DNA from: Scyliorhinus canicula
Lineage: Eukaryota
NCBI RefSeq assembly: GCF_902713615.1
Contig: NC_052146.1
Span: 309,768,335 to 309,832,334, forward strand
Length of the DNA: 64,000 nucleotides
Direction: 5' to 3'
The notes under the pieces were generated by a model. The model worked only from the letters and a program-made list of their open reading frames with translations, ran no database searches and was not told the origin of the DNA. Positions 7,736-52,212 of the stretch are shown piece by piece. Both the position numbers and the translations under genes were made by a program. Numbering within the stretch: the stretch's first letter is position 1; each line of letters starts with the position of its first letter.

Positions 7736-8161
7736 GGGCAGGATTCCCCGACCCCCCCCCCCCCCCCCCACCCCCCCCAACCCCGCCGAGTCAGAGAATC
7801 GGCAGGGGGGACGGCGTGAATCCCACCCCCGCCGGCTGCCAAATTCTCCGGCACTGGAAATTTGCCGGGGGCGAGAATCGGCCCTCCCGACAATTCCCCG
7901 GCCCGTGATGGGCCAAGTGGCCACCCCTTTGTTGCTGGTCCCACCGGTATAAATTATAATAGCTCCTTACCAGTGGGACCTGGTGGCGCAGGCGACCTCC
8001 GGTGTCCACGGGGTGGGGGGGGGGGGGTAACCCCCCATGCGCATGCGCTGGAATGATGCCAGCACAAGCTGGCGTTCCGCGCATGCGCCAACTCGGGCCG
8101 GCTGGCGTGGCGCCAATCAACTTCCCCGCCGGTCGGCACAGCCGGCCTAGCCCCTGAAGGT
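7736..8161 (+). mobile_element. MITE-like element, left part (right part 18062-18171), split by the LTR element
   Basis: Terminal inverted repeats gggcaggattcccc / gcagaatcccgccc; sequence is continuous across the AGGT TSD. Confidence 0.6.
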
Positions 8162-9123
8162 TGTAGCCACCTAAAATGGACGCTGAGCTGCAAAGTAAGC
8201 CAAGCGCTAAGACTGCAGGGAAAAAGGCAGTTTAGCCAAAACAGCAGTCTGCAAAGAGAGCATTTTGCATTCTGCAAGTAGCAGAAACCAGTTTGGTCTC
8301 AGGTGAGAAGACCTTAGTTCGGTGCAAATGGCAAAACGCTTTGCATACTAATGAGGCAATCAGACCTGAACACCCACACAATAGAAACATTTGACTCTGA
8401 ATGGACACATTTGAACCAAGGCCCAGACATCGAGGCACCAGAAACCTCCAAACAAAAGGGCATAAGAAACGCCCCCCCCATCACGGAGACCCCCTCGCAT
8501 TGGGGAATTCAAACAGTATCGATGAGGAATTGACCCAATAGATAACCAAAGGTTAAAGCCCGCCCCAAAAAGGCATGGAGATTGGGATCCCTATAAAAGA
8601 CAGGGACCTTGTGTTGTCCGGTCTGTTTTGTGCTCCGGCTACCTGTGATCCTGAACTTGACTCCTGACTCCAGCCGTTGAGCACCAGCTGCTGAACCGTG
8701 AGTAATACACGACGCTCGCTACGCGAACCAGCTACCGATAGACCCTGACGACCAGCATACCCTCTGAAGGTGCAGCCCCAAGATCAGAAGGAAGGCCTTG
8801 CTCCCTGACCTTGCCGGTTCCCACTTAGTTAAGTATACTGATCATTTAGTTTAGTCATAGCTTAGTCTCGTAGTGTGTGCATGGGTATTTATTATTTGTC
8901 ATAATAAATACAATTCGTTTAGAACTCACTAAGCGGTGTATCGTCTTTATTACTTTGAACCTGACCTTGAAATACTTGTGACGGTGTCTAGATACGGCAC
9001 CTGGCGACTCCGAGCTAGAAGAATACACATACAGAGCCTAGTAGTGTTAAGCACACGACCTTACGGAGGCGTGTTAATACACTCCAATAAACACGTTTTA
9101 CACCCAAAGTAAAACGTGCAACA
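8162..9123 (+). repeat. 5' LTR
   Basis: tgtagcc..gtgcaaca; TATAAAA 8592-8598, donor GTGAGT 8698-8703, AATAAA 8903-8908. Confidence 0.96.
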
Positions 9124-9442
9124 TTTAGTGGCGACATCCTGCCGGGACACGGTTGTAAGTGGTAACCCCACTCCGTCCAGGACCCTGAAATTTGAATTGG
9201 AACTCCAAAATACAGAGAAAGTAAAAAAATCACAAGTCTTCAAGGTGTTCAAACTAATAAGTGTAATTCGGAAGTGTGTTTAGTGCATGCGTACTAACAG
9301 GGCTGTAAGGTAAAACTGAAAGCTTTTTGTTGCGACAAACTTTCGGTAGTTTTGTGAACGGAACATAGCATAAGCCGTACCCGTTTCGTGAGACACAACC
9401 CCAGCACCCCCTGTTCCAAATTTAAAAAGAGAGTCAGAGAAA

Positions 9443-11197
9443 ATGGCCATGCAGGCAATGGAACGTCTGATGGATCCAGAAAGGTTTGTGGTCGCAGCGA
9501 CCAGTGGTAGCAGAGTAGGTCAGTGTCCCGTGTGGGAGCTGGAACTCCGCAAATACCTACAAGGAAAGGGATGGCCCCTTTGGAAAGAGTTTTGTCTGAA
9601 TGAGGAGACAGGTCCCGGAAGTATTGGCCATACTTGGTGGGAGAACCTCTCTCAAATTCACAAAAAGAATATAGGAAAAGTGCGTAAGCTGATGGCGATT
9701 GTGTCCTGTCTGGCACAGTTGCGAGGCACAGAGGAGGTCGTTAGGACGCTCCGAGCAGAGTTGGAGGAGAGAGACCGAATGGGTAAGGTGGATGTCAGGG
9801 ACATCGAAAAGGAAAACATGGAGCTTAGAGGGAAGTTGGCAGAGAAGGGTAGAGAGGTGGAGGATGCCAAGAGGGCACACCAGTCTTGTCTAGCCCATCT
9901 CAGCAGTTCCCAAACTCAATATGAGAAAGCCTATCAGGACGTGCAGCGTGCCGTTCTGGTAAGAGAACAAGCAGAGAAGCAGGTAGAGGCGTTGCAGAAG
10001 CAATGCTCTGACCTGAAGGCAGCTTTAAGAGCACTCCACGCTGCCAACACAGAACAGAGACAAAGCACAGTAGACCACGCGAAATGCAGAAAACAGATTG
10101 CGGAACTGCAATCTCTGCTTTCGGTGCAAAACGGGTTCCAGAGCACCTTTGGAACGCAGTTAGATGAAGAAAATGCCCCAGATTGTCAAGAGTTGAGCGA
10201 AACTGCGCAGCGATATGTTCAGAGAACATGTGCGCCAGCAGCGCAGCAGAAAAGGCAAGCACCCCAACCCCCCACACACCCTCCAGATCAGATAGTCACC
10301 GCACCCATGAATCCCGTAACCACACAAAGGAAAGCAACCACCGAAGGCGCACCCGATATAACCTACACCACCCCCTTAACGGTAACCCAGCTCAGGGACG
10401 CATGTGAAAAGATCACTCTGTTCCTCCCCACCGCAGACCCCCACCAGTTCTTTGCTAAAGTAAAACAACAGGCGACCATGTACGGCCTGGATGAGAGAGA
10501 GCAGGTTAAGCTCACCGTGCTGAGCTTAGACCAGTCAGTAGTAGCAGCCCTCCCCGACCCACAGAACGTTGGCGGAGGCACCCTTGAGGAAATGCACACC
10601 TCCATTTTAGACGCTATAGGGTACAATCGAGGTGACCCTGTAGAAGGACTGAACAAGTGCCGGCAAAAGAAAACCGAGCACCCCACAGCATTCGCAGGAA
10701 GGCTGTGGATTCATTTTAACGCAGTTTTTGGCGAGTTAAACAGAGCCCATTTAAGCCGCGAAAACATGGTTAAATGGACGCGCACCCTGATTTCACACGC
10801 GACAGAGGCAGGACAGAGCGCTTGCCACAGTTACGACCCCTCAGAAGAGGCCCACAATGAGAAATGGGTCCTGAAAAGGTTGTCCCGCGCTTGGGAGCAA
10901 TCACTTCAGGGCAAAAGTAAGGTTAAATCCCCAGAGGAAGCTCAGGCTGCAGCAGATATTCAGGCAGTGAGAGCGCACCAAAACCCCGCGTGGGTAAATG
11001 AAGGGAAGAGCAGCCCTCCACAGAAGTCGCAGGAATGCTATAACTGTGGACAGTTAGGGCATTGGGCCAAAGAGTGTAATGCACCCCAGAGATCTCAGAG
11101 AGGCCAGCAGACAGGCACTCTGAACCGCAACAAAGCAAAACCCATCCACAATATAGCAATACAGTCAGGACCCACCAATGTGGACGAGACGAACTGA
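9443..11197 (+). CDS. gag: Gag (584 aa): coiled-coil-like region, capsid-like region, CCHC knuckle
   Basis: Long open ORF after 5' LTR; CYNCGQLGHWAKEC = Cx2Cx4Hx4C. Confidence 0.93.
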   Translation: MAMQAMERLMDPERFVVAATSGSRVGQCPVWELELRKYLQGKGWPLWKEFCLNEETGPGSIGHTWWENLSQIHKKNIGKVRKLMAIVSCLAQLRGTEEVVRTLRAELEERDRMGKVDVRDIEKENMELRGKLAEKGREVEDAKRAHQSCLAHLSSSQTQYEKAYQDVQRAVLVREQAEKQVEALQKQCSDLKAALRALHAANTEQRQSTVDHAKCRKQIAELQSLLSVQNGFQSTFGTQLDEENAPDCQELSETAQRYVQRTCAPAAQQKRQAPQPPTHPPDQIVTAPMNPVTTQRKATTEGAPDITYTTPLTVTQLRDACEKITLFLPTADPHQFFAKVKQQATMYGLDEREQVKLTVLSLDQSVVAALPDPQNVGGGTLEEMHTSILDAIGYNRGDPVEGLNKCRQKKTEHPTAFAGRLWIHFNAVFGELNRAHLSRENMVKWTRTLISHATEAGQSACHSYDPSEEAHNEKWVLKRLSRAWEQSLQGKSKVKSPEEAQAAADIQAVRAHQNPAWVNEGKSSPPQKSQECYNCGQLGHWAKECNAPQRSQRGQQTGTLNRNKAKPIHNIAIQSGPTNVDETN

Positions 11198-14100
11198 CGG
11201 TGTTCGGGCTCCCCCACTTGGGTCTGTGACACACTATGGGATCCGTCAGGGAGACCCGTAGTCACGGCAAAAGTAAAAGGGAAGCCCATAGAGTTACTTT
11301 GGGACACAGGAGGGTCCCGCACCACAATAAACTCCACGACCACGGCACAGGCAGACACTTGGCCGACCACATCCACCATCACACTTAGCGGGTTCACAGG
11401 ACACTCGCAGCAGGGACATATCACAGCACCCGTAGCGATCCAGCTAGGGAACATTTCCACAAAACATCCAGTCGTTTTAGTAAATCTTCCCCGGACAGCA
11501 GAACACATCCTGGGGATAGATTTTATGAATGCTCATAGCCTGTCGTTCGACCCAGTGAACCAGTGTGTCTGGCGAATGGCTCGATCGGACAGAGCACCAG
11601 CTACTCTCAAAGTAGGAGAGTACGCTAACAGGATTAGTGCAGTAGGAGAGTACTCCTTTGACCTGACTACACTCCACACCGACAGACAAATAAAGGCACT
11701 TCTAAACAAACACAGGACAGCATTTGCCAGTCACCGTCATGACTGTGGCAGAATGACTGGACCAATCCACGTTACCGGACCGGACCCCCGACCACAGAAA
11801 CAGTATAGATTTCCCCTGGAAGCAGAGGCGGAAATAGAGAAAGTTATAGGAAGCTTATTGGAGCAAGGTGTGCTCAGAACGGTAGCCTCGACCAATAATG
11901 CCCCTATTTGGCCAGTGAGGAAGCCCGATGGATCATGGCGTCTGACCATCGATTATCGGGAACTCAACAAAGTCACCCCCGCAGTAGCCCCAACGATAGC
12001 TACTAGTCCCGAGACCATGCTCAAGCAGGGACTCAACTCCAAATATTTCACGGTATTGGACATTAGTAATGGCTTCTGGTCAATACCATTGGCAAAAGCG
12101 TGCCAGTACAAATTTGCCTTCACTTTCAAATCGCAGCAGTATACGTGGACATGCCTTCCACAAGGATTCCACAACTCCCCCTCCATTTTCCACCGACAGT
12201 TGGCAAGTGGTTTAGAAAAATTTTCCCGCCCCGAATGTCTGGTACAGTATGTAGACGACCTACTACTGCAGACAGACACAAAGGCAGAGCACATTTCGCT
12301 TCTGGCCGAACTCCTGGAACTCTTGACTGAAATTGGATGTAAAGTTAACCCGAGAAAGGCCCAGATTTTGGCAGATAAAGTGATGTATTTGGGTACAGTC
12401 ATCACGCACGGCAAACGCGAGATCGAATTCAAAAGAATTGATTTGATCGTCAAATTGCCCCTTCCCCAGAATGTTTCAGCCCTCCGGTCGTTTTTAGGAC
12501 TGGTTGGCTATTGTCGGAACCACATCGACGGATTCGCGACAAAAGCCGCCCCACTCTCAGACCTCCTTAAGAAAGGAGCCCCCTGGGAATGGCTTCCGCA
12601 GCACACAGAGGCTGTTGAGGAGTTAAAAAGAGCCCTTAGCGCAGCACCCGCGCTGCTAGTCCCAGACCCACTTTCCCCTTTCGCAATCGAGGTAGCGAGC
12701 ACCGATCTGACCCTCTCGGCCGTGTTGCTTCAGGAACGGCACGAGCAGCTAAGACCAGTGGCTTATGCCTCACGACTGTTAGACCCGGTTGAACAAGGAT
12801 TCTCAGCCTGTGAGAGGCACCTCCTTGCTGTCTTCTGGGCAGTACAATATTTCTCTTACATTACCGGACTCAACCCCATTACTATTCTGACCGAACACAC
12901 ACCCACACAGTTACTCCTAGACGGTCGACTGAAGGACGGTTCAGTTAGCCAGATTAGGGCAGCTAGGTGGACACTACTCTTACAAGGACGGGGCATTACA
13001 GTAAAACGGACACGCACACACACATATTTAGCAGACAATCTTCAATACCCCGGACAGCCCCATGACTGTGAAATTGTAGCTCCCCTACATAACACAGGAC
13101 CCTTTATAGCAAAGACACCCCCCAGGAAGATAGGGAATCCAGCACAAGGCACCCCACACGCAGACACGTGTGGACCCCTGAGGATTTACGTGGACGGTTC
13201 ATCCACAGTTTTAAATGGTGAGCGTATCACAGGATGCGGCATCTATGTCGAGGACGCGCAGGGTCGCGCACTCGAAGAAATAGCACTCAAATTGCCAGGT
13301 CACTTAGGCGCGCAGGCAGCAGAGCTCGCGGCCATAGCTTATATAGTGGACCACCCCGATTCTTTCCCCAGCCCAGCAGACATATATTCAGACAGTTTAT
13401 ATGTCTGTAATAGTTTCACAGATTTTCTGCCCCTGTGGAGGACACGAGGTTTTGTCTCCGCAGACGGGAAACCCCTTCCATCAGCCCCTTTACTCCAGCA
13501 CATCTTAGAAAAAGCGAAGGACAGGACCTTCGGCATAATAAAGGTAAGAAGTCACCATAGGTCATCCCCCCCTGGGAATGTAAAGGCCGACGCATTGGCT
13601 AAGGCAGGTTCCAGGCGAGGACACTTATGGACCCCCCCCCCAGCTAGTGCACCAGCTAGCGCCCCTGTGAGCGCAGTCCAAGTCTCACAGACTGACATTA
13701 AAGATCTTGTAGAGGCACAGAAGCAGGATGAGGATCTCAGGGAGATTTTCAAAGGAAACTTTGTGCCACAATACGATAGATTCAAACATGCACTGACCAC
13801 ACATGAGGGTGTGATCATTAAGGACCAGCTTTATGTGGTCCCGAAGCAGGACAGGAATCAGATGATTGCCTTGTTCCATGACGGACACGGGCATCAAGGA
13901 ATTGACACAACTACTAGGCACCTCAGGCAGCTCTGTTGGTGGCCTAATCTAAGGACCGATGTGACACATTATATCGAGAATTGCCTTATTTGCGCTCAGA
14001 ATAACCCGGAGAGGTATTCTAAAAAAGCCCAACTTCGGCATACTCGACCAGTTAACGGCCCCTGGACGAACCTCCAGATCGACTTTATAGGACCATTGCC

Positions 14101-15427
14101 CCCTTGTAGGAATGGCTATAAATACGTTCTGGTGGTGATCGACACTTTTACCAAGTGGGTAGAGGCATTTCCCTCTCGTACGAACACAGCTAAGACAGCT
14201 GCTAAAATTCTGACGCACCACATCTTCACAAGATGGGGTTTACCGCGTAGTATTGATTCGGACCAGGGATCTCATTTTACAGGACGTGTCATGAAGAGCG
14301 TCCTGACAATATTTGGCATAAAACAAAATTTCCACATTGCGTATCATCCACAGTCCAGCGGGATTGTGGAGTGCATGAATCGGACCCTAAAAACAACCCT
14401 TAGGAAAATGGTACAGGAAAACAATTCGACATGGGATTCAGTGCTCCCATTTGCACTCATGTTCATAAGAAACACTGTCTCCACATCCACAGGTTACACA
14501 CCACACAAACTCATGACCGGACGCCCTATGAAAGGTACAGAATTCCTTTTAGGACTGGACATGACTAGCCCCGAAGTAACGGCCCTCACCCATGAAAGAG
14601 CAGTTAAAGACCTAGTTGAGACTGTGAGGTCTGCACAGCTCGCAGCCGCAGTTCGACTAGGCAAACGACGTCAGCAAAGCACTGCGTGCTTTGACAAGAC
14701 TGTTCACCCCACAGAATTCCAGGTTGGGCAACAGGTAATGTTATCTGTTTACAACCCCAGCAGTTTTTTGGCTCCAAAATTTTCCGGCCCCTACTCAATT
14801 GCGGATAAAATTAGCCCCTCTGTGTATAAAATCAAATATCCTAACGGGAAGACTGCGTGGTTTCATATTAACCAGCTTAAAGCATATGGAACACAGTCTA
14901 ACCATGCTCATCATGTACTGCTAGATGCAGCAGAACACTTCACCCCGCCCACTAGAGACACTTTTCCACCATCCCCCTCACAGACCAGTTCATCAATGGA
15001 CTCGCCCACGACTCCGCCCACTGACCACGACAGACCACGCCCCGAAACGCCCACAAGCTGCCGCAGCAGAGACAGCAGGACAGACACTGACTCTGAGGAC
15101 AGCGACAGCACACAGCCATACAGCCCACACTGCACCAACTACGACCCCGACTCCAGTGACCCCATGGAAGTCACTTACCTTAAAAACCCAGAACCACCAC
15201 CCGACCCCGACTACCCCGACAACACACTTGACACAGCACTCTGGCACAGGGACAATTCGTGCAGACTTGTCCGCAACGATGAAAGTGACCCCCGGTCACA
15301 TAATTATAAGATTGCATGCCTGATCCACACAAGGGTGTGGGATCCGGGAGAGCAGGACGACACGGTGTCTGAATCCCGATACGGCAACCCCTTTGTGACC
15401 CTGTTCACAGAGGCAGAGTCAAAGTGA
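11198..15427 (+). CDS. pol: Pro-Pol in frame with gag: protease, RT, degenerate RNase H, second RNase H, integrase
   Basis: LLWDTGGS (Asp codon 11303), LPQGF, YVDD, IEVAST..AYASR, IYVDGSS..AELAAI..YSDS..GNVKADALA, HDGHGH..CLIC, IDFIGP..DSDQG..GIVE, GPY. Confidence 0.96.
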   Translation, partial: RCSGSPTWVCDTLWDPSGRPVVTAKVKGKPIELLWDTGGSRTTINSTTTAQADTWPTTSTITLSGFTGHSQQGHITAPVAIQLGNISTKHPVVLVNLPRTAEHILGIDFMNAHSLSFDPVNQCVWRMARSDRAPATLKVGEYANRISAVGEYSFDLTTLHTDRQIKALLNKHRTAFASHRHDCGRMTGPIHVTGPDPRPQKQYRFPLEAEAEIEKVIGSLLEQGVLRTVASTNNAPIWPVRKPDGSWRLTIDYRELNKVTPAVAPTIATSPETMLKQGLNSKYFTVLDISNGFWSIPLAKACQYKFAFTFKSQQYTWTCLPQGFHNSPSIFHRQLASGLEKFSRPECLVQYVDDLLLQTDTKAEHISLLAELLELLTEIGCKVNPRKAQILADKVMYLGTVITHGKREIEFKRIDLIVKLPLPQNVSALRSFLGLVGYCRNHIDGFATKAAPLSDLLKKGAPWEWLPQHTEAVEELKRALSAAPALLVPDPLSPFAIEVASTDLTLSAVLLQERHEQLRPVAYASRLLDPVEQGFSACERHLLAVFWAVQYFSYITGLNPITILTEHTPTQLLLDGRLKDGSVSQIRAARWTLLLQGRGITVKRTRTHTYLADNLQYPGQPHDCEIVAPLHNTGPFIAKTPPRKIGNPAQGTPHADTCGPLRIYVDGSSTVLNGERITGCGIYVEDAQGRALEEIALKLPGHLGAQAAELAAIAYIVDHPDSFPSPADIYSDSLYVCNSFTDFLPLWRTRGFVSADGKPLPSAPLLQHILEKAKDRTFGIIKVRSHHRSSPPGNVKADALAKAGSRRGHLWTPPPASAPASAPVSAVQVSQTDIKDLVEAQKQDEDLREIFKGNFVPQYDRFKHALTTHEGVIIKDQLYVVPKQDRNQMIALFHDGHGHQGIDTTTRHLRQLCWWPNLRTDVTHYIENCLICAQNNPERYSKKAQLRHTRPVNGPWTNLQIDFIGPLPPCRNGYKYVLVVIDTFTKWVEAFPSRTNTAKTAAKILTHHIFTRWGLPRSIDSDQGSHFTGRVMKSVLTIFGIKQNFHIAYHPQSSGIVECMNRTLKTTLRKMVQENNSTWDSVLPFALMFIRNTVSTSTGYTPHKLMTGRPMKGTEFLLGLDMTSPEVTALTHERAVKDLVETVRSAQLAAAVRLGKRRQQSTACFDKTVHPTEFQVGQQVMLSVYNPSSFLAPKFSGPYSIADKISPSVYKIKYPNGKTAWFHINQLKAYGTQSNHAHHVLLDAAEHFTPPTRDTFPPSPSQTSSSMDSPTTPPTDHDRPRPETPTSCRSRDSRTDTDSEDSDSTQPYSPHCTNYDPDSSDPMEVTYLKNPEPPPDPDYPDNTLDTALWHRDNSCRLVRNDESDPRSHNYKIACLIHTRVWDPGEQDDTVSESRYGNPFVTLFTEAESK

Positions 15428-16382
15428 GGTGTCCAGATGATGTAACATAGGAATCGTTTGAGGGAAGCGATGTCCTTTCTGATGGAACCTGCACGTATGT
15501 TTGTCTATCGTTTTATGTTTGTTTGTCTTTCAGGAATGTAAATGGTTCAGTTGGAGGATGGACATCTTCTTTTCAGCTGAAAAGATTGTGACCACCTCAC
15601 ACACACGTTAGCTTGTCCGCCGATACCTTTGAGAACTTCAGTTCCCAAACCCGTTTGATTGGAGATCTTTTCAAGTTGTAAGGCTTGTGACCGCCTTACA
15701 CACACAATAGTTTATCTGCAGATACCTGTGAGAACTTCAGGTTCCGTCCTCAGTTGGAGCATCTTGGCTCCCTTGTTTTTGTTAGGTGCCCCTCTATTCG
15801 GCGAATAGAGGCTGCAAGTCACGGTAACCACATTCTTACCCGTTTAATCCAGGTTACTCAGGCAGTGGACAAACGGCACTGAGGACCCGCCCTGTCTGAG
15901 AACCAACCTTGGTCAGCCAAGCTCGGGTATGGCACAGCACGCCCTACCCGGGGATCCCATCCAACTCGTACCCGTCGCGGCCCATACGCAACTCATTCGA
16001 ACGTTTCTTTCAAAATTTGTTTTCATTTTAGTTAGGTAGCCCTTTGGCCGCCATCCCACATGCTATTTACATCCGGGAACATTCGGATGGTAAACTAGCA
16101 AAGCCTGCGAGACGGCTCGCAGGAGAAGGATTGTTAGGTGTATTCTGGTCTTCAAATTCGCTTTTGAAAAAAAAAAAATGAGGGGAGTCACAGGGTGTGA
16201 CTTGGCCAGTCATTTTTAAAGGGTCAATTGGAATTTAAAAGACAGATGCACTAACAGGTAAAGATCTTAAACTGTGTATTGACAGATACTGTGCTTGATC
16301 CCATAGCTTTCGAAGGACGAGACAGGGATCGAAGCAAGGATTGTCCATACAGGAGGAAGAAAGAAGGAAGAACAAGTTGAAG

Positions 16383-16727
16383 ATGATGGAAGCTCACCTA
16401 TTACTATTGAATGTTATATTTGTTTGTGTACAAACCAGCCATGTTTCCCCCACAACCCCCGCCGTTAATGTTTCCCTCACAGCAAGTCCCCCGTGCTCAG
16501 CTCTGATCAGCGAGGTTCAGACCTGGTGCACGAAGTTTATGACATGGTACTCCATGTCATACGTGATCGAATCACTGCTAGTGATTGCGATCATCTGTAT
16601 CATCATCCAAACCCTCAGGTTGAGGAAGTGGAAGAGGAGAGCCTCCCGCTCCTGCCCCTCAACCATCTATGGGGTACAATCCCCTATCTTCGGGTTTCAC
16701 CAATCCCCCCAGCCCCTCACTGATTAA
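16383..16727 (+). CDS. Small single-pass membrane protein (114 aa) in the env position of the LTR element
   Basis: ATG ATG in good Kozak context; hydrophobic N-terminus, NVS sequon, TM YVIESLLVIAIICIIIQTL, basic RLRKWKRR; acceptor at 16284-16285 with no ATG in between; AATAAA 16739-16744. Confidence 0.72.
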   Translation: MMEAHLLLLNVIFVCVQTSHVSPTTPAVNVSLTASPPCSALISEVQTWCTKFMTWYSMSYVIESLLVIAIICIIIQTLRLRKWKRRASRSCPSTIYGVQSPIFGFHQSPQPLTD

Positions 16728-17099
16728 AGCACTCTGTAAATAAAATTCTACCATGTATTATATTGTCCTACACTCGACTGCCGAGTTAGGAAGTGTGATG
16801 TTGTGGTGTGAATGGTTAAGGTTTTTTAGAGTGTGATAAATGTTTAAGTTAAGGATAAGGATAGTGTGATAGGTAGAGGTTCCCGGTTTTTGTAATGCAT
16901 GTCCCTTTGACATAGGGCCAAGTAGAATGTTAGTTAAATTTTTTTTTCTTCTTCCCATAGTTTAGGATAGAGTAGCCCAGGAACTGGCAAGAGGTCAGGG
17001 AACACAGGGAACACACAGAGAAGGCACCCAGAAGCACTCAGCACGACCTGCATGGGTGATCCTTCACAATTTTCAATTGTGAGGATCACAAGGAGGGAA

Positions 17100-18061
17100 T
17101 GTAGCCACCTAAAATGGACGCTGAGCTGCAAAGTAAGCCAAGCGCTAAGACTGCAGGGAAAAAGGCAGTTTAGCCAAAACAGCAGTCTGCAAAGAGAGCA
17201 TTTTGCATTCTGCAAGTAGCAGAAACCAGTTTGGGCTCAGGTGAGAAGACCTTAGTTAGGTGCAAATGGCAAAACGCTTTGCATACTAATGAGGCAATCA
17301 GACCTGAACACCCACACAATAGAAACATTTGACTCTGAATGGACACATTTGAACCAAGGCCCAGACATCGAGGCACCAGAAACCTCCAAACAAAAGGGCA
17401 TAAGAAACGCCGCCCCCATCACGGAGACCCCCTCGCATTGGGGAATTCAAACAGTATCGATGAGGAATTGATCCAATAGATAACCAAAGGTTAAAGCCCG
17501 CCCCAAAAAGGCACGGACATTGGGATCCCTATAAAAGACAGGGACCTCGTGTTGTCCGGTCTGTTTTGTGCTCCGGCTACCTGTGATCCTGAACTTGACT
17601 CCTGACTCCAGCCGTTGAGCACCAGCCGCTGAACCGTGAGTAATACACGACGCTCGCTACGCGAACCAGCTACCGATAGACCCTGACGACCAGCATACCC
17701 TCTGAAGGTGCAGCCCCAAGATCAGAAGGAAGGCCTTGCTCCCTGACCTTGCCGGTTCCCACTTAGTTAAGTATACTGATCGTTTAGTTTAGTCATAGCT
17801 TAGTCTCGTAGTGTGTGCATGGGTATTTATTATTTGTCATAATAAATACAATTCGTTTAGAACTCACTAATCGGTGTATCGTCTTTATTACTTTGAACCT
17901 GACCTTGAAATACTTGTGACGGTGTCTAGATACGGCACCTGGCGACTCCGAGCTAGAAGAATACACATACAGAGCCTAGTAGTGTTAAGCACACGACCTT
18001 ACGGAGGCGTGTTAATACACTCCAATAAACGCGTTTTACACCCAAAGTAAAACGTGCAACA
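17100..18061 (+). repeat. 3' LTR
   Basis: Same length as 5' LTR; about 11 substitutions by manual comparison. Confidence 0.96.
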
Positions 18062-18829
18062 AGGTGCAGAGGATTCCGCACCTTTGGGGCGGCTCGACGC
18101 CGGAGTGGTTCCCGCCACTCCTTCCCGTCAGGGTTGATTCCCGTCCCGCTGATTCCCGCAGAATCCCGCCCCACTTATTTCGGGAATTGTGGGAGGAAAC
18201 CAGAGGACCCGGAGGAAATCCACGCAGACACGATGAGAAACATGCAGACTCCGCACTGACAGTGACTCACGCCGGGAATCGAAACTGGGACCCGAGATCA
18301 GTGAAGCAACAGTGCCAACCACTGCGCTGCAGTGCAACCCATTAGCCCCATTTTCCCCTTTAAAATAAATTGTAATTCTTTGAATTTAAATATTCCTGAA
18401 ATGAAATGAAAATGAAAAGCGCTTATTGTCACAAGTAGGCTTCAATGAAGTTACTGTGAAAGCCCCTTCTCGCCACATTCTGGCACCTGTTCGGGGAGGC
18501 TGGTACAGGAATTGTTGCTGGCCTGCCCTGGTCTGCTTTCAAAGCCAGCTATTAAGCCCAGAGTGCTAAACCAGCCTGTGTGTGTTTATCTTGGTGTGTA
18601 CAAATTGAAAAACTTCAACAATGAGTCACTTTTCACAAGATTCAATCCTAAACAATAAAGCGACTGATTTTTTATTGACTCACACAAATATATTTTGCTT
18701 TATTCAAATGAATCAGCTCTTCGGTTCAATCTTAGAATCTGGTTCTCTCCTTTTCAAACAGAACATTCTCTTTAAACACTTTGGAACCTTCAGACTGGTG
18801 TTTAACTTGTTGATATTTTTCTCTGAAAG

Positions 18830-19174
18830 GTGCGAATGCTCCAGTCCTTATCCAGTCCCCGAGTCTGGAATGTGTCACAGAGGGTCAGACTGCACGGTTA
18901 CAGTGCACCATGCGGAACGCCGCAGTGACACACACCGATGTTCACTGGAACCGGGAGCTGCCAGGGAAAGATATGGAAAGGGTTTTAACACATGATATAA
19001 AGAATAACACACAATGGAGTCCGGGTTTCACTGAGCGTTTCCATCCTTCCCGAGACACGGCCAATAAAACCTTCATCCTGACAATCAGCAACGTGCAGCC
19101 CAGTGACACTGCCGTCTATTACTGCTCCGTGTGGGGAGATATCAGTGGGAATGGATCACAGCTGAATGTAACCA
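18830..19174 (+). CDS. Receptor gene A, exon VJ2: second germline-joined V-J Ig domain
   Basis: AG at 18828-18829, donor GTAAGT at 19175, phase 1/1, 345 nt: GANAPVLIQSPS..LQC..VHWNR..DTAVYYCSVWGDISGNGSQLNVT. Confidence 0.93.
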
Positions 19175-19464
19175 GTAAGTACAATTTCCATGATTCTCAT
19201 GTGGTTTTGCTCACAGATGGAAACTTCTTGAACTTATCTTCCAGAATATAAATTCTTTGACTCCTTTGTTTACTCAGGTTATTGCCAATGCGGTGCCTCG
19301 AGCTGGTTGGTTTTATATTCATACTTTATTGGCAAGGTGCCATCCCTAACTGCCCTGGAGAAGGTGGTGGTGAGCTGCTGCACTCCATGTGGTGTAGGTA
19401 CTGCTGTTAGGGAGGGAGTTCCAGGATTGTGACCCAGCGACAGTGTAGTAACGGCGATACATTT

Positions 19465-36114: not shown

Positions 36115-36540
36115 GTCCTCTGATCTCCGGGTAAGCGTTCTCCAAGGCGGTCTTCCGGACATGCGACAACGCAGAATTGCCGAGCAAAAACTTATAGCTA
36201 AGTTCCGCACGCATGAGTGCGGCCTCAACCGGGATCTTGGATTCATGTCGCATTACATTCACCCCCCACCATCTGGCCTGGACTTGCAAAATCCTTCCAA
36301 CTGTCCTGGCTTGAGACAATTCACACCTATTTAACCTGGGGTTACCCCTATCTCTGGATCTGTAATGATTTGATTACCCGCAAACGCTCGCATTCCAAGC
36401 CTTGTCTGGCATCTCTGACTTTGTCTATATAAATGTTTGTGGAAAATATCTCTCCATTCACCTGAGGAAGGAGCAGTGCTCCGAAAGCTCGTGTTTGAAA
36501 CAAACCTGTTGGACTTTAACCTGGTGTTGTAAGACTTCTT
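36115..36540 (+). mobile_element. Penelope-like element 3' end (GIY-YIG C-terminus + pseudo-LTR)
   Basis: QRRIAEQKLIAKFRTHECGLNRDLGFMSHY followed by a hammerhead-bearing tail. Confidence 0.8.
36459..36493 (+). ncRNA. Minimal type I hammerhead ribozyme
   Basis: CAC-CUGAGGA-A-GGAGC agu GCUCC-GAA-AGCU-C-GUG: core, 5-bp stem II, palindromic stem III, CAC/GUG stem I. Confidence 0.75.
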
Positions 36541-36544
36541 TCTG

Positions 36545-38092
36545 TACAGCAGGAAAGGTTATTTTAAAGATTTTCTTGGCTCTATTAGCCACAAAGGCAT
36601 GGGAATTCAAATCTATAGATATAAAAGCTGCCTTTTTGCAGGGGCATCAGCTCCAGAGAGACATTTTTCTCTGTCCTCCTAAAGAAGCAGCTAACACAGA
36701 AGGGATAATCTGGAAGTTGAACAAATATGTATATGGATTAAATGATGCATATAGAGTGTGGTACTTTTCGGTAAGGTCAGTTTTGTTAAAGCTAGGCTGT
36801 TGCCCGTTGAAAGCAGATCCTGCAATGTTTTACTGGCACTATAAAGGAAATCTTTCTGGCATCTTTATGATGCATGTTGATGATTTTTTGTGGGGTGGGA
36901 CTAGTGATTTTGAAGCTATTGTAATCTCTGGTTTGATGTAAAGAATTCAGGGTTGGAAGTCAGGATTCCGGTGGATTTAAATATATTGGACTGGAAATTG
37001 GACAGACTAAGTTAGGGGCAACTTTACGTCAGCAAACTTGGAAAGCATCAGCCCAATAGCAATTAGTCATGGCCGAGTTTCACAAAAAGACGCAATGGTT
37101 TCAAAGATAGAAAAAGAGCAACTGCGAAGTTTAATAGGGCAACTGAACTGGTTAGGGAGACAGACTAGACCGGACATGAGTTTTGATGTCTGAAGAGTTG
37201 AGTACAAAAATGAATGATCCCACAGTGGAAGACATAATAAGAGCAAATGAAGCGTTGGCCAAACTAAAAATGCAGCAGCGTGTTTTGAAGTTCCCGGTTT
37301 TAGGAGACGTTAGGCATTTGAAACTCATAGTTTGTAGTGATGCGTCCTATGCAAATTTATGTGATGGGGTTTCAAGCGGAGGAGGTGTTATAATTTTCCT
37401 TTTGGGGAACAATGGTAAATGTTGCCCTCTTGTGTGGGAAACAAAGAAAATAAGGAGAGTGGTCAAAAGCACTTTGGCTGCTGAGACGTTAAGCCTTGTG
37501 GAAGCGCTGGATATGGCCTTTTATCTAAGTCAGATACTGACAGAAATTTTGGGATTATGGGATTTGGGTAATATACCTATTGACTGTCACATTGACAATA
37601 AATCCCGGTGGGAAAATGTGCACTCTACAAAAAGTGTCAATGAAAAGAGGTTCCAGATAGACATCGCAAGTTTGAAGCAGATGTTGGACAGAGGGGAAAT
37701 AACAAAAATTAAATGGGTCAACAGTAGCTATCAACTGTCAGACAGTTTTAAGAAAAGAGTGGATAGTTCGTGGAAAATTTTGGATATTATTAATGAAGGG
37801 CGCCTGTTTCTGTGACTGGGTTTTTTCCCCCTTCCAAACAAAAAAACCTAATTGTTTTTTTTTCTCCAAGGAAGGGGAGACTGTTAAGTAATGGGTTAAG
37901 AGACATTGCAATTAGTTGTCTCATTTATGTTAAGTGTTTATTGACACTGATCTGTAAAGGGGCTTCAGGTGGCCTCTGGGTCTGGTGATGTGTAGAGTTT
38001 TGTGCAGACTCTGTTGGAAGAAATAAAAATGTGTTGGTGAAAAAGGAACAGACTTTTGTCTCTTCAAACCACAGCATCTAATACGTCTAACA
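36545..38092 (+). mobile_element. Ty1/copia (GalEa-like) 3' fragment: RT, RNase H, PPT and 3' LTR (37882-38092)
   Basis: IDIKAAFLQG, YGLND, HVDD, SDASYAN, VVKSTLAAET; PPT aaggaaggggagac; LTR tgttaag..tctaaca. Confidence 0.85.
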
Positions 38093-46841: not shown

Positions 46842-47804
46842 CTGAGGGAAAATAGAGACATGTTAGAAATTTTGATCGTGTCACACGTGCACAATGAGAG
46901 GTTTATTTGGAAATGTTCTACATTCTAATGATAGCTGTTTATGGGCAAAAGGAGTGCGGTAACTGTTGAAATTCTATTAGGTGATGTCTGGCAGGACCAG
47001 TACTACAGGTTCGTTAGTAGACCCTGCCTGCTGGCTCCGCCCAAGAGGCGGAGTATAAATATGTGTGTTCTCCATGCTGCAGCCATTTTGCCAGCTGCTG
47101 TGGGAGGCCACATATCTTAGAGCAATAAAGCCTCAGTTGTATCCAACTCAAATATTTGCATCAATTTATTGCTCTAAGATTTTCGAAAGATGGTCCTCCA
47201 TATGAAAAATGAAAATTGCTTATTGTCGCGATTAGGCTTCAATGAAGTTACTGTGAAAAGCCCCTAGTCACCACATTCCGGCGCCTGTTCGGGGAGGCTG
47301 TTACGGGAATATCAAACCGGATCGCCTGCAGCTGGATCCGCATTCAAGCGACGCCAAAACGGACTCTCAACATTGGCTAGCTTGTTTCGAGGCGTACATC
47401 AACTCCGCGTCCACCCCTGTCTCGGAGGCTCAGGAGATACAGATCCTGCCCTCAAGGTTGAACTCCAGCGTCATTCCGCTAATCCTGGACATGCCGAACT
47501 ATGCCGAAGCCATGCCGCTTCTCAAGGAGAATTACGCTTAAATCCCACTGATCCGGGATTGTGACTGTCAGGCCGTTACGGCCACTGAACATTCAAATCT
47601 CCTTATGTGGGACGCGTTTGTTACAGGGATTGGGTCGGACCTCATACGCCAGCGACTGTTAGAGGGGCCCACGCTCGTCCTAGTGGAGACCAAGAAACTG
47701 GCGTTCTCCATGACGGTCACCTCGTGCAACGTTCAGGCCTACACACCCAGCCACGCGGCCCACCCCTCCTACACATCGTGGGCCCCACAGACGGCTGCCC
47801 CAGC

Positions 47805-48385
47805 GGGGGCCTTACCCAGCGGGGGCCTTACCCAGCGGGGGGCCCTTACCCAGCGGGGCCGTTACCCAGCGGGGGCCTTACCCAGCGGGCCCTTACCCAG
47901 CGGGGCCCTTACCCAGCGGGGGCCTTACCCAGCGGAGCCCTTACCCAGCGGGGCCCTTACCCAGCGGGGGCCTTACCCAGCGGGGGCCTTACCCAGCGGG
48001 GGCCTTACCCAGCGGGTCCTTACCCTGCGGGGCCCATACCCAGCGGGGCCTTACACAGCGGGGGCTTTACCCAGCGGAGGCCTTACCCAGCGGGGGCCTT
48101 ACCCAGCGGGACCCTTACCCAGCGGGGGCCTTACCCAGCGGGGGCCTTACCCAGCGGGACCCTTACCCAGCGGGGGCCTTACCCAGCGGGGGCCTTACCC
48201 AGCGGCGCCCTTACCCAGAGGGGGGGGCATTACCCAGCAGGGCCCTTACCCAGCGGGGCCCTTACCCAGCGGGACCCTTACCCAGCGGGGCCTTACCCAG
48301 CGGGGCCCTTACCCAGCGGGGGCCTTACCCAGCGGGGCCTTACCCAGCGGGGGCCTTACCCAGCGGGACCCTTACCCTTACCCAG
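47805..48385. repeat. About 15-bp minisatellite inside the Gypsy gag
   Basis: (ccttacccagcgggg)n variants. Confidence 0.95.
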
Positions 48386-50102
48386 CCAATACGTCTGCGC
48401 CACGCACCAGTCAGCAAACCACGGGGTCGCCGATGTTATTTTTTGCAGCCAAGACACCCCCACCAACGGTGCCCGGCCCACGCTGCCCTTTGTAAGGCTT
48501 GCGGCAAGAAGGGGCACTTTGCCGCGGTGTGCCAGGCCTGTCCAGCCGGAACTATCAACCCCACCCCCCTCGTTATGGACAATGGGCGCCGCCATCTTCA
48601 CCTCCCCGGACCAAGCGTGGCCAGTGGGCGCCGCCATCTTCCCCTCCGAGCAACACGTGCGGCCCATGGGCACTGCCAGCGTTCCAGGATCGGGGCCCCC
48701 CGGGCTCCCCATCATCTGACACCAGCGACGACCGCCTACGACTCGCCTCAGTGACCATCGAGCAGCCTCGTCCGCACAAGCTGGTCACCGCATCGACCAG
48801 CGTTAAAGTCAACGGGCACGTGACCTCTTGCCTGCTGGACTCCAGGAGCACGGAGAGCTTCATCCACCCGGTTACGGTAAGGAGCTTCTCCCTCGCGGTA
48901 CACCCCGCCAATCAAAGAATCCCCCTGGCCTCCAGATCCCATTCCGTGGCGATCCGCAGTTACTGTACGGTCACACTCAAGGTCCAGGGCGTAGAATTCA
49001 GCGGCTTCCGTCTCTACATCCTCCCTAACCTCTACGCTGCCCTACTGCGAGGCCTGGAGTTCCAGTGCAACCTCCAGAGCCTAACCCTGAAATTCGGCAG
49101 GCCCCTACCACCCCTCACAGTGTGCGGCCTCGCGACCCTAAAGGTCGATCCACGTTCCCTCTTCGCATATCTAACCTCAGATTGCAAACCCGTTGCCACT
49201 TGGAGCAGATGGTACAGCACCCAGGACAGGATCTTCATCAGGTCCGAGGTCCAGCGGCTGCTTTGGGAAGGTATCATCTAGGCCAGCAACAGCCCCTGGA
49301 GAGCCCAAGTGGTAGTAGTTAAAACTGGGGAGAAACACAGAATGGTCATGGACTACAGCCAGACCATCAATCGGTACACGCAGCTCGACGCGTACCCCCT
49401 CCCTCGCTATGTCTGATATGGTCAATCAGATTGCACAGTACCGGGTCTTCTCAACTGTAGATCTCAAATCCACCTACCACCAGCTCCCCATTTGGAAATT
49501 GGACCGTCCATACACTGCCTTTGAGGCAGATGGCCGCCTCTATCACTTCCTCAGGGTTCCCTTCGGCGTCACCAACGGGGTCTCAGTCTTCCAAAGGGAG
49601 ATGGACCGAATGGTCGACAGTACGGTTTGCAGGCCACCTTCCTATACCGAGACAACATCACCATCTGCGGCCATGATCAGCAGGGCCACAATGCCAACCT
49701 TGCCAAATTTCTCCACACCGCCACTCTCCTCACCTACTACAAGGAGAAGTGCGTGTTTAGTGCGACCCGCTTAGCCATACTCGGCTATGTGGTCCAGAAC
49801 GGAGTTCTGGGGCCCGATCCCGACCGCATGCGCCCCCTCATGGAGCTCCCCATCCCCCACCGACTCAAGGCCCTCAAACGCTGCCTGGAGGTCTTTTCGT
49901 ACTACGCTCAGTGAGTCCCAAACTATCCGGACAAGACCCGCCCACTCATGCAGTCCACCCATTTTCCCCTGATGGCCGAGACACAACGGGCCTTCGCCCG
50001 TATCAGAGCCGGTATTGCCAAGGCCAGGATGCACGCAGTAAACGAGACACTGCCCTTTCAAGTAGAGTGCGACGCATCAGACGTCGCCGTGGCCGCCACC
50101 GT

Positions 50103-50340
50103 CAATCAGGCAGGCAGACCCTGCCCTGGCCGCCACCCTCAATCAGGCAGGCAGACCCTGCCCTGGCCGCCACCCTCAATCAGGCAGGCAGACCCTGCCC
50201 TGGCCGCCACCCTCAATCAGGCAGGCAGACCCTGCCCTGGCCGCCACCCTCAATCAGGCAGGCAGACCCTGCCCTGGCCGCCACCGTCAATCAGGCAGGC
50301 AGACCCTGCCCTGGCCGCCACCCTCAATCAGGCAGGTAGA
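50103..50340. repeat. 37-bp tandem repeat inside the Gypsy RNase H
   Basis: (caatcaggcaggcagaccctgccctggccgccaccct) x6 + partial. Confidence 0.93.
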
Positions 50341-52212
50341 CCCGTGGCATTCTTTTCCCACACCCTTCATGCCTCAGAAATTCGACACTCATCCATCAAG
50401 AAAGAGGCCCAAGCTATCATTGAAGCTGTGCGGCATTGGAGGCATTACCTGGCTGGCAGGAGATTCACTCTCCTCACTGACCAACGGTTGGTAGCCTTCA
50501 TGTTCAATAACACACAGCAAGGCAAGATCAAGAATGATAAGATCTTGAGGTGGAGTATTGAGCTCGCCACCTACAATTACGAGATTTTGTATCGCCCCGG
50601 TGAGCTCAATGAGCCCCCAGACGCCCTATCCCGAGGTACATGTGCCAGCGCACAAGTAGACCGACTCCTGACCCTGCACGACAGCCTTTGTCACTCGGGA
50701 GTCACATGGTTGGACAATATCATAAAGGCCCGCAATCTGCCCTACCCCCTCGAGGAAGTACGGACAATTACCAGGGACTGCCATGTCTGTGCGGAGTGCA
50801 AGCCGCAATTCTACAGGCCGGACCGTGCGTACCTGGTGAAGGCCTCCCGCCCCATTGAACGCCTGAGCATGGATTTCAAAGGGCCCCTCCCCTCCACCAA
50901 CCGTAACACATATTTTCTCAGTGTGGTCGATGAGTACTCCAGATTCCCCTTCGCCATCCCATGCCCCGATATGATGTCTGCCATTGTCATCAAAGCCCTC
51001 AACACAATCTTCGCTCTGTTCGGTTTCCCGGCCTACATCCACAGTGACAGGGGATCCTCCTTTATGAGTGATGAGCTGTGTCAGTTCCTGCTCAGCGGGG
51101 GTATCGCCTCCAGCAGGACGACCAGCTACAACCCCCGGGGAAACGGACAGGTAGAGAGGGAGAACGGGACGGTATGGAGGGCCATCCAAGTGGCCCTACA
51201 GTCCAGGAACCTCCCAGCCTCCCGCTGGCAGGAGGTCCTCCCTGATGCACGGCACTCCATTCGGTCACTACTCTGCACCGTCACTAACAACACACCCCAT
51301 GAACGTCTTTTTCCTTCCCCAGGAAGTCCACATCCGGGGTGTCGCTCCAGACTTGGCTTGCAGTTCCAGGAACCGTCTTGCTCCGTAGGCACGTCCGACT
51401 CCACAAGGCGGACCCGTTGGTGGAAAGGGTACAGTTGCTCAATGCAAACCCCCAGTATGCCTACGTGGCGTACCCCGACGGCCGGCAGGATACTGTCTGC
51501 CTCAGGGACCTGGCACCAGCAGGTTCAACACCCCCCCACCCCCCCAGCCCTGCACCAATCTACCCTCCCCCAGCCCTCCCAGCAGCAACCCCTCCCAGGG
51601 CCATCCGTAGTCCCCTGCCCCACGCCCGAGGATGAAGAAGATTTTGGCACGCTCCCGGAGACACCGGACATCGGATCAGCATCGCATCTCCGACACCACT
51701 ACGTCGCTCACAGCGGCATATCAAGGCCCCGGACCGGTTAAACCTCTAACTGGTCCACTGAACTTCAAAAGACATTTTTTTTTCTCCCTCTGTCAAAGAT
51801 TATAAATGTAAATGTAAAAAGAAAACCATTTGTTGTACATCGTTCTCCACCACCCCCACCGGACTCAATTTTAACAGGGGGTGAATGTGGTAAACGACTG
51901 TTACACTTCTATCAGGTGATGTATGGCAGGATCTGTACTACAGGTTCATTAGCAGTCCCTGCCTGCTGGCTCCGCCCAGTAGGCGGAGTATAAATATGTG
52001 TGTCCTCCATGCTGCAGCCGTTTCGCCAGCTGCTGTGGGAGGCCACACATCTTAGAACAATAAAGCCTCAGTTGTACCCAACTCAAGTCTTTGTGCAATT
52101 GATCGAGCATTAAGGAATTTATTTTACTATATGTCGAAGGAGGAAACTTTGATCATGTGGTGAATGTTGATCACCAGACATATCCCTGTTTGTTGCAGTG
52201 AGAGATATTTAC

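What the first reader, a model, noticed from the sequence alone, without database searches (positions are those of the whole stretch)
12680..13615. Dual RNase H: recognisable but dead Gypsy-type domain followed by an intact retroviral-type one
Seen: domain 1 keeps the Ty3/Gypsy pattern, but its catalytic motifs read EVAS, ERHL and TEH instead of TDAS, EKEL and TDH. Domain 2 has DGSS, AELAA, YSDS and NVKAD intact. The RT looks spumavirus-like (PQKQY, LDISNGFW, LPQGF, YVDD) yet gag has a CCHC knuckle. Known: retroviruses have a degenerate tether plus an acquired RNase H; lokiretroviruses and Odin elements show dual RNase H. Inference: a lineage near the retrotransposon-retrovirus transition, in a shark.
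Basis: partly seen in the sequence, partly recalled or inferred. Interest (0 to 1): 0.7.

Follow-up and report, generated by a model that had tools for sequence, protein, structure and literature searches.

The report
Envelope-less endogenous retrovirus, ordinary dual RNaseH
The dead-plus-live RNase H pair is the normal layout of a retrovirus, here in a young, very abundant endogenous retrovirus family that likely lost its envelope gene and keeps a small conserved membrane-protein gene in its place.

Summary
The motifs are real, but the layout is ordinary. The stretch lies in pol of a complete 9.9-kb provirus (LTRs 98.9% identical, 4-bp target duplication, tRNA-Arg primer site, gag-UGA-CGG-pol). 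Domain 1 is the retroviral tether: its best solved match is MLV, not Ty3. RT and tether trees put the element inside canonical Retroviridae, and grouping it with lokiretroviruses is rejected (AU p=0.002). Its close kin are published clade-Huo ERVs (whale shark Rh_ty_ERV2, Xenopus ERV2, eel, coelacanth, chimaera); Xenopus ERV2 has the same EVA/ERHL tether.

This group's tether is as Gypsy-like as loki's (about 28% identity against about 20% in other retroviruses). One mixture-model tree makes the group the first branch of the canonical retroviruses sampled, and loki integrase nests with it. Neither placement is established.

The missing env is likely a secondary loss: the nearest sister family in the same genome carries a broken env, with a weak hint of loki/paramyxovirus-F type (E 0.011). 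In env's place sits a 114-aa transmembrane ORF under purifying selection (dN/dS 0.16). Verdict: a new member of a known kind, with two testable side leads.

The parts
8158..8161 (+). Target-site duplication AGGT (repeated at 18062-18065)
   Evidence: 4-bp duplications in 5 of 5 other copies with both ends seen
8162..9123 (+). 5' LTR, 962 bp, TG...CA
   Evidence: 11 mismatches to the 3' LTR, K2P 0.0115
9129..9148 (+). Primer-binding site for tRNA-Arg(TCT), with two one-base insertions in this copy
   Evidence: exact 18-nt match in 3 of the 18 copies where a site was found, of 20 examined
9443..11197 (+). gag (coiled N-part, capsid-like part, one CCHC knuckle at 11036-11077)
   Evidence: capsid part plainly similar by eye to whale shark Rh_ty_ERV2; dN/dS 0.08
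11195..11290 (+). UGA-CGG gag-pol junction with a downstream stem-loop; likely read-through signal
   Evidence: TGACGG in 23 of 24 copies covering it; fold z -3.1; the UGA-CGG context is a type II read-through motif in PMC13517186 passages; read-through itself inferred
11261..11533 (+). Retropepsin protease (LWDTGG), not the foamy A9 family
11780..12610 (+). Reverse transcriptase core (YVDD)
   Evidence: dN/dS 0.11
12590..12985 (+). Tether/connection domain: the old Gypsy-type RNase H without its catalytic carboxylates
   Evidence: groups with retroviral tethers 99/95; dN/dS 0.07
13181..13612 (+). Second, acquired RNase H with D666/E709/D732/D798
   Evidence: dN/dS 0.04; activity inferred from residues
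13838..14887 (+). Integrase (H2C2, DDE core, Tf2-like SH3)
   Evidence: groups with relatives and lokiretroviruses 95/86
15506..15533 (+). Pyrimidine tract + AG, possible splice acceptor for a 3' RNA
   Evidence: RNA depth rises about 2.6- to 11-fold across 15505-15545 in 4 of 4 runs; no junction read listed; CAG seen in 19 of 26 copies
16383..16727 (+). ORF3: 114-aa predicted type I membrane protein (hydrophobic N-terminus, TM about 58-76, 7 K/R in the next 15 residues), in env position
   Evidence: open in 20 of 20 and 8 of 9 further copies; dN/dS 0.16, shifted frames 0.93 and 2.92; no family assigned
17090..17099 (+). Polypurine tract
17100..18061 (+). 3' LTR

Best explanation
This is an endogenous retrovirus of the canonical Retroviridae, kin to published class III/clade-Huo fish and frog ERVs, whose first RNase H-fold domain is the usual retroviral tether (likely a structural linker only) and whose second domain is predicted to do the RNA cutting. 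Gag-Pol would be made by read-through of UGA-CGG, priming would use tRNA-Arg, and integration leaves 4-bp duplications. The family likely lost its ancestral env and spread to thousands of copies, most likely by copying itself within cells. It keeps a small membrane protein (ORF3) under selection; my best guess is an accessory protein, possibly a cut-down env, that acts at the membrane for budding or cell-to-cell passage. Shown: anatomy, motifs, selection, copy abundance, sense transcription of the family, placement inside canonical retroviruses. Inferred: catalytic silence and activity, read-through, env loss, the role of ORF3.
For: The tether alone hits MLV/XMRV RT at E 1e-9 and Ty3 RNase H only at E 0.08. 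The tandem tether + RNase H Pfam pattern occurs in 12 of 12 retroviral or loki Pols and 0 of 4 Gypsy Pols. RT tree: canonical clade including the window 100/99, loki separate 100/99; window + loki rejected, p-AU 0.0017. RT + tether mixture tree: window + 6 relatives 100/98. By-eye matches of those relatives to Xu et al. 2018 sequences listed around snakehead retrovirus under 'Clade Huo'; monophyly of that clade not rejected, p 0.14. Purifying selection on every pol domain and on ORF3. The sister family is the nearest branch (99) and carries a broken env with RxKR site, fusion-peptide-like stretch, heptad region and membrane anchor. 4091 and 5569 first-look candidates in the genome. Sense-strand RNA over the whole element.
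Against: Snakehead retrovirus is not the sister of this group in any of my five final tree sets, so 'SnRV-like' is the published label and not my result. RT alone cannot reject the window branching before the other canonical retroviruses (p 0.070). The integrase groups with loki. ORF3's likeness to the sister env tail (6.3 bits) is no better than that of unrelated class I env tails (10.9 and 5.7 bits), and 9 of 300 block shuffles reach it, so descent from env is not shown. No class II, Odin or fish foamy-like sequences were in the trees.
Confidence: 0.85

Rival explanations
1. The element's group is the earliest-branching, slowest-evolving lineage of canonical retroviruses. It keeps the ancestral tether, a loki-like integrase and, in env-bearing members, a loki/paramyxovirus-F-type env. 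This is compatible with the best explanation but makes the group more than an ordinary class III clade.
For: In the C20 mixture tree the other 27 canonical rows group against it at 95/91. Tether identity to Gypsy RNase H is 27.9% (close relatives 25-31%, loki 24-29%) against 16-23% in gamma, epsilon, ERV-L, foamy and SnRV. In the integrase tree loki nests with four relatives (100/94), and a loki-free window + relatives clade is rejected, p 0.027. The sister-family env profile ranks the three loki Env proteins first among 417 proteins and aligns with cysteines in register (hhalign E 0.011).
Against: Clade-Huo monophyly is not rejected (p 0.14). Loki integrase outside canonical retroviruses is not rejected (p 0.081). 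The RT-only tree puts a turtle + ERV-L group first instead. Short branches can be drawn towards the root. The env signals are below significance (E 0.5; hhalign probability 3.7%), with no Pfam or PDB hit and unusable models. The integrase tests were chosen after seeing the tree.
Confidence: 0.3
2. It is a lokiretrovirus or Odin-like element, i.e. a retrotransposon-retrovirus intermediate that never had env.
For: No env. Tether as Gypsy-like as loki's. Integrase next to loki's, with the same Tf2-SH3 and p58-C weak hits.
Against: RT with loki rejected, p 0.0017. Tether tree excludes it from loki, 99/95. RT has LPQGF where loki has CPFGY/TPFGY. The sister family has an env remnant. Odin itself was not in my trees.
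Confidence: 0.04
3. It is a foamy-like endogenous retrovirus (clade Tu).
For: PQKQY and YVDD motifs; marmoset foamy Pol is the top PDB hit for RT to RNase H, just above MLV (237 vs 232 bits); 4-bp duplication.
Against: Foamy viruses form their own 100/100 clade without it. Retropepsin rather than A9 protease, and a CCHC gag in frame with pol. Dimensions differ from the published catshark ERV-Spuma.0-Sca (9220 nt, 866-bp LTR, env). Only mammalian-type foamy Pols were sampled, and I ran no AU test for this grouping.
Confidence: 0.03
4. ORF3 is a FAST/sORF2-like cell-cell fusogen that lets the env-less family pass between cells.
For: Small size, one TM, polybasic juxtamembrane stretch, env position, purifying selection. 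sORF2 has these features and sometimes lies downstream of pol (bioRxiv 2025.03.14.642691 passages).
Against: No MGxxxS/T myristoylation motif; a hydrophobic N-terminus that looks like a signal peptide; 57 residues precede the TM against about 30 in sORF2; no look-alike in the Atlas above 0.87. TM + basic residues is a generic signature.
Confidence: 0.15

Closest known systems
Clade Huo ERVs of Xu et al. 2018 (PMC6001957): Rh_ty_ERV2, Xen_tro_ERV2, An_ro_ERV1/An_an_ERV3, La_ch_ERV4, Ca_mi_ERV1; also Le_er_ERV4
   Same: Rh_ty_ERV2 gag capsid, CCHC and protease start are plainly alike by eye. Xen_tro_ERV2 has the same EVA.../CERHLL tether. Database proteins resembling these entries are the window's nearest rows at 50-58% RT identity.
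   Different: This family is young, very high-copy, env-less and carries ORF3. I found no description of it in the papers read. The matches were made by eye on supplement passages, and clade membership was read from label order in a figure's text.
Snakehead retrovirus (SnRV)
   Same: LDISNGFW/LPQGF/YVDD RT, 48% RT identity, the best among named exogenous viruses in my sets; tether + RNase H; stop-codon gag-pol junction.
   Different: SnRV has UAG rather than UGA, keeps env and accessory ORFs, has a more decayed tether (45.7 vs 68.5 bits), and is not the sister group in my trees.
Lokiretroviruses and Odin retrotransposons (PMC7947760, PMC9040795)
   Same: Tether + acquired RNase H, similarly Gypsy-like tether, related integrase, possibly related env in the sister family.
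   Different: RT and tether fall outside loki. Odin is env-less in sea anemones; here env-lessness is likely secondary.
Murine leukaemia virus RT (5dmq, 4hkq, 4mh8)
   Same: Colinear over RT, tether and RNase H in one alignment; best solved match of the tether.
   Different: Gamma tethers are further from Gypsy RNase H (18-21% identity); different gag, UAG read-through, gamma-type env.
Drosophila MDG1-group sORF2 / reoviral FAST proteins (for ORF3)
   Same: Short single-pass membrane protein with a polybasic tail in an env-less LTR element.
   Different: No myristoylation motif, likely a signal peptide, longer ectodomain, no sequence link.

Membership tests
Retroviridae (canonical) | RT falls inside the retrovirus clade | tested here: met
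   100/99; class II not sampled
Retroviridae (canonical) | Degenerate tether followed by an acquired RNase H; order PR-RT-RH-IN | tested here: met
Retroviridae (canonical) | LTRs TG...CA, tRNA primer site, PPT, target duplication | tested here: met
Retroviridae (canonical) | env gene | tested here: not met
   none between pol and the 3' LTR in the window or in the copies fetched; present but broken in the sister family; env loss is common in ERVs (established knowledge)
Clade Huo (class III / SnRV-related ERVs) | Groups with published Huo members | tested here: met
   nearest rows match Xen_tro_ERV2, An_ro_ERV1, Ca_mi_ERV1 and a Latimeria entry by eye
Clade Huo (class III / SnRV-related ERVs) | One clade with SnRV and ERV-L | tested here: inconclusive
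   not recovered; not rejected, p-AU 0.14
Lokiretrovirus | RT in the loki clade | tested here: not met
   p-AU 0.0017
Lokiretrovirus | Env related to Mononegavirales F (PF00523) | tested here: inconclusive
   absent from this element; sister-family env gives hhalign E 0.011 to a loki Env and no Pfam hit
Lokiretrovirus | Integrase in the loki group | tested here: inconclusive
   groups together 95/86; the alternative is not rejected, p 0.081
Odin retrotransposons | RT sister to lokiretroviruses, dual RNase H, no env | not testable with these tools
   no Odin sequence was returned by my searches; the loki placement that it implies is rejected
Spumaretrovirinae | RT in the foamy clade; A9 protease; no CCHC; pol not in frame with gag | tested here: not met
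Ty3/Gypsy (Metaviridae) | Single active RNase H with D-E-D-D; RT in Metaviridae | tested here: not met
ERV4 of Chong et al. 2014 (PMC4299795) | 5-bp duplication, no gag zinc finger | tested here: not met
   4-bp duplication and CCHC here
FAST/sORF2 (ORF3) | 60-210 aa, one TM, three or more K/R in the 15 residues after it | tested here: met
FAST/sORF2 (ORF3) | N-myristoylation motif and ectodomain of about 30 aa | tested here: not met
   starts MMEAH; 57 residues before the TM; some sORF2 also lack the motif
FAST/sORF2 (ORF3) | Cell-cell fusion activity | not testable with these tools
   needs an assay

The most novel reading that the evidence does not exclude
This shark/eel/coelacanth/frog group is the first-branching lineage of canonical retroviruses. 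It bridges them to lokiretroviruses by keeping a near-ancestral tether, a loki-type integrase and an F-type (paramyxovirus-like) envelope. One descendant then discarded that envelope, kept a 114-aa membrane protein that works like a FAST/sORF2 fusogen, and spread to thousands of copies: an envelope-independent transmission route in a vertebrate endogenous retrovirus.
Probability: 0.12. Interest if true: 0.75.

Novelty: new member of a known kind. Interest (0 to 1): 0.32.

Why it matters
The dual RNase H itself adds nothing: every retrovirus has it, and the same decayed motifs stand in a published Xenopus ERV. The locus is still a useful handle on two open questions. The first is where the root of canonical retroviruses lies and which env they started with. 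This slow-evolving group is poorly sampled: one query motif of the group (LDISNGFWSI) occurred 3 times in the loki paper's supplement as stored (cut short), and both places shown were SnRV. The second is how env-less vertebrate ERVs spread, given a selected small membrane gene in env's place.

Tried and rejected
Loki/Odin membership and a Gypsy origin of domain 1 as a recent event were rejected. Identity with the published catshark ERV-Spuma.0-Sca was rejected on dimensions only. No foamy protease match in the genome, but the control rang nowhere either, so this is uninformative.

An env-bearing copy of this same family was not found: 0 of 12 class I env loci match it, and one apparent case is a different ERV nested inside a copy. 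The RNase H-2 tree was unresolved.

ORF3: no Pfam family above cut-off, only generic TM look-alikes in the Atlas, no relative in metagenome contigs, nothing in earlier findings, and homology to the sister env tail not distinguishable from controls. Sister env: no Pfam, PDB, Atlas, viral or metagenome hit; two models at pLDDT 47 and 44, and a fold search with nothing. Viral contigs gave no relative of RT. No splice junction was listed in two read layings; the run search listed no holder on record as RNA. One search was mis-aimed at the sister family's pol instead of its env.

Literature: 9 searches turned up no description of this family, of ORF3, or of F-type env in this group. The library lacks most subscription papers and Repbase.

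Full report
ANATOMY. The flagged stretch lies in a 1409-aa pol frame (11198-15427) that follows a 601-aa gag frame directly across one TGA. The element is a whole provirus. LTRs at 8162-9123 and 17100-18061 differ at 11 of 962 bases, K2P 0.0115, and are flanked by AGGT. Five of five other copies with both ends in view also have 4-bp duplications. With the rates assumed in two papers (0.5e-9, PMC10699275; 2.2e-10, PMC4422223) this copy would be about 12-26 million years old, a rough figure. The primer site matches a host tRNA-Arg(TCT) with two extra bases; 3 of 18 copies with a site found match it exactly. The junction reads UGA-CGG in 23 of 24 copies and is followed by a stem-loop (z -3.1). 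UGA-CGG is a type II read-through context, and UGA junctions are reported in some fish and frog retroviruses (passages of PMC13517186). A 1.1-kb probe gave 4091 first-look candidates in the genome; all 40 scored were 94-100% identical. Two stranded RNA runs show sense-strand reads over the whole element, mostly from other copies.

THE TWO DOMAINS. Pfam finds the Gypsy-type RNase H families and then RNase_H. Aligned to 17 Gypsy domains, which keep D-E-D-D in 17 of 17, the window has A500, H541, E566 and D613. The first motif registers on VAST, not EVAS. Domain 2 keeps its four carboxylates in the window and in 20 of 20 copies. Domain 1 is dead only catalytically (inferred): dN/dS is 0.07, like RT (0.11) and RNase H-2 (0.04) (pooled pairwise comparisons of 24-26 copies to the window, not independent). 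Searched alone against solved structures, it finds MLV/XMRV RT at E 1e-9 and Ty3 at E 0.08; MLV aligns colinearly through both domains. The same three Pfam hits occur in 12 of 12 retroviral or loki Pols and in 0 of 4 Gypsy Pols. The loki and Odin papers state that this layout is common to all retroviruses (sections read).

Mean identity to Gypsy RNase H is 27.9% for the window, 25-31% for its close relatives and the turtle-type rows, 24-29% for loki, and 16-23% for gamma, epsilon, ERV-L-like, foamy and SnRV rows.

PLACEMENT. Three homologue searches and one representative search gave 417 stored proteins. After a first FastTree of 267 rows I hand-picked 46-77 rows per tree. Anchors were named by the database (feline, simian, bovine and equine foamy viruses, WEHV1, PERV) or by eye against supplement passages: P0012 is SnRV, and P0014 and P0016 are loki-type. 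The RT tree (73 rows, 277 columns) puts the window inside canonical retroviruses (100/99), with loki a separate clade (100/99). Window + loki is rejected (p-AU 0.0017); window as first branch is not (0.070). The tether tree agrees (99/95).

The nearest rows come from frogs, coelacanth and unnamed assemblies at 50-58% RT identity. They resemble entries of Xu et al. 2018 (two parts of the text and supplement passages read): An_ro_ERV1, Ca_mi_ERV1, a Latimeria ERV, Le_er_ERV4 and Xen_tro_ERV2. The last shows the same EVA.../CERHLL tether, and whale shark Rh_ty_ERV2 shares recognisable gag and protease stretches. All but Le_er_ERV4 are listed next to snakehead retrovirus under 'Clade Huo' in that paper's S2 figure, which I could read only as text. 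Han 2015 placed the chimaera lineage I ERV with SnRV and required an env homologue. So the clade and the layout are described.

WHAT DOES NOT FIT 'ORDINARY'. With RT + tether under a mixture model (52 rows, 408 columns), window + 6 relatives form a 100/98 clade. Together with turtle-type rows (91/85) they are sister to the other 27 canonical rows (95/91), and SnRV lies elsewhere. A published-style clade Huo is nevertheless not rejected (p 0.14). In the integrase tree loki nests among the relatives (95/86; 100/94). Excluding loki from that group is rejected (p 0.027), but loki outside all canonical retroviruses is not (p 0.081); both tests were post hoc, and the Odin paper warns that RH and IN trees are problematic. 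Class II, Odin and fish foamy-like sequences are missing from all trees.

ENV AND ORF3. No env lies between pol and the 3' LTR. None of 12 class I env loci belongs to this family. A gag fragment elsewhere in the window led to an older sister family, the window's nearest branch (99). Its copies carry a broken env-like ORF after pol, so env loss is the likely direction. That env matches neither class I env nor, by BLAST, loki Env. A profile of its pieces ranks the three loki Env proteins first of 417 at E 0.5-2 and aligns to one with cysteines in register at E 0.011, probability 3.7%. This is a lead only; Pfam, PDB and folding gave nothing.

In env's place the young family has ORF3 (16383-16727): hydrophobic start, one TM, basic tail. 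It is open in 20 of 20 and 8 of 9 copies, with 5569 first-look candidates and dN/dS 0.16 against 0.93 and 2.92 in shifted frames. RNA depth steps up at a pyrimidine-AG site near 15533 in 4 of 4 runs, but no junction was listed, and deleted copies or 3' bias could explain it. ORF3's likeness to the sister env tail is no better than controls. It meets some FAST/sORF2 criteria and fails the myristoylation and ectodomain-length ones (passages of bioRxiv 2025.03.14.642691).

VERDICT. The finding as framed is the standard retroviral tether + RNase H in a new, high-copy member of a described ERV group (confidence 0.85). The deep position of the group, its possible F-type env and the selected ORF3 are unproven but testable. 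Interest 0.32.

Noticed in passing
window 16383-16727: ORF3, a 114-aa predicted membrane protein in env position, open in 28 of 29 copies read and under purifying selection (dN/dS 0.16; core 0.11).
   Followed up: yes
window about 58300-59900; L077, L083, L085, L088: LTR and gag fragment of an older, degraded sister family. Its copies carry a broken env-like ORF with RxKR site, heptad region and WWDD...HPF-TM tail, weakly like lokiretroviral (F-type) Env.
   Followed up: partly
window 9002-9011 (inside each LTR): A second TGGCGACTCC, matching the first 10 bases of the tRNA-Arg primer site, sits inside the LTR in most copies; perhaps a relic of an older LTR end.
   Followed up: no
window 15430-16380: The non-coding stretch between pol and ORF3 is more conserved among copies (p-distance 0.05) than synonymous sites (0.13-0.39) or LTRs (0.11), suggesting a cis-acting RNA element; it holds a short internal repeat.
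   Followed up: no
window 47542-51741: An ordinary Ty3/Gypsy element with a single RNase H, interrupted by a 37-nt tandem repeat; a handy contrast to the finding.
   Followed up: partly
window 36369-37815: Degraded Copia-type RT (RVT_2) with a downstream open frame.
   Followed up: partly
window 18814-19251: Immunoglobulin V-set exon that ends in a J-like GNGSQLNV stretch, i.e. looks pre-joined. A 99%-identical copy of the provirus lies about 195 kb away (L015), suggesting a segmental duplication of the region.
   Followed up: no
L063-L064 (G000:C9): An env-bearing ERV of another lineage is inserted into the 3' non-coding region of a copy of this family.
   Followed up: partly
L044, L049: Internally deleted, non-autonomous copies that keep ORF3 and both LTRs or parts of them.
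   Followed up: no
P0012: Snakehead retrovirus Pol has a roughly 200-aa insertion between RNase H and integrase that the window's element lacks (no Pfam hit).
   Followed up: no
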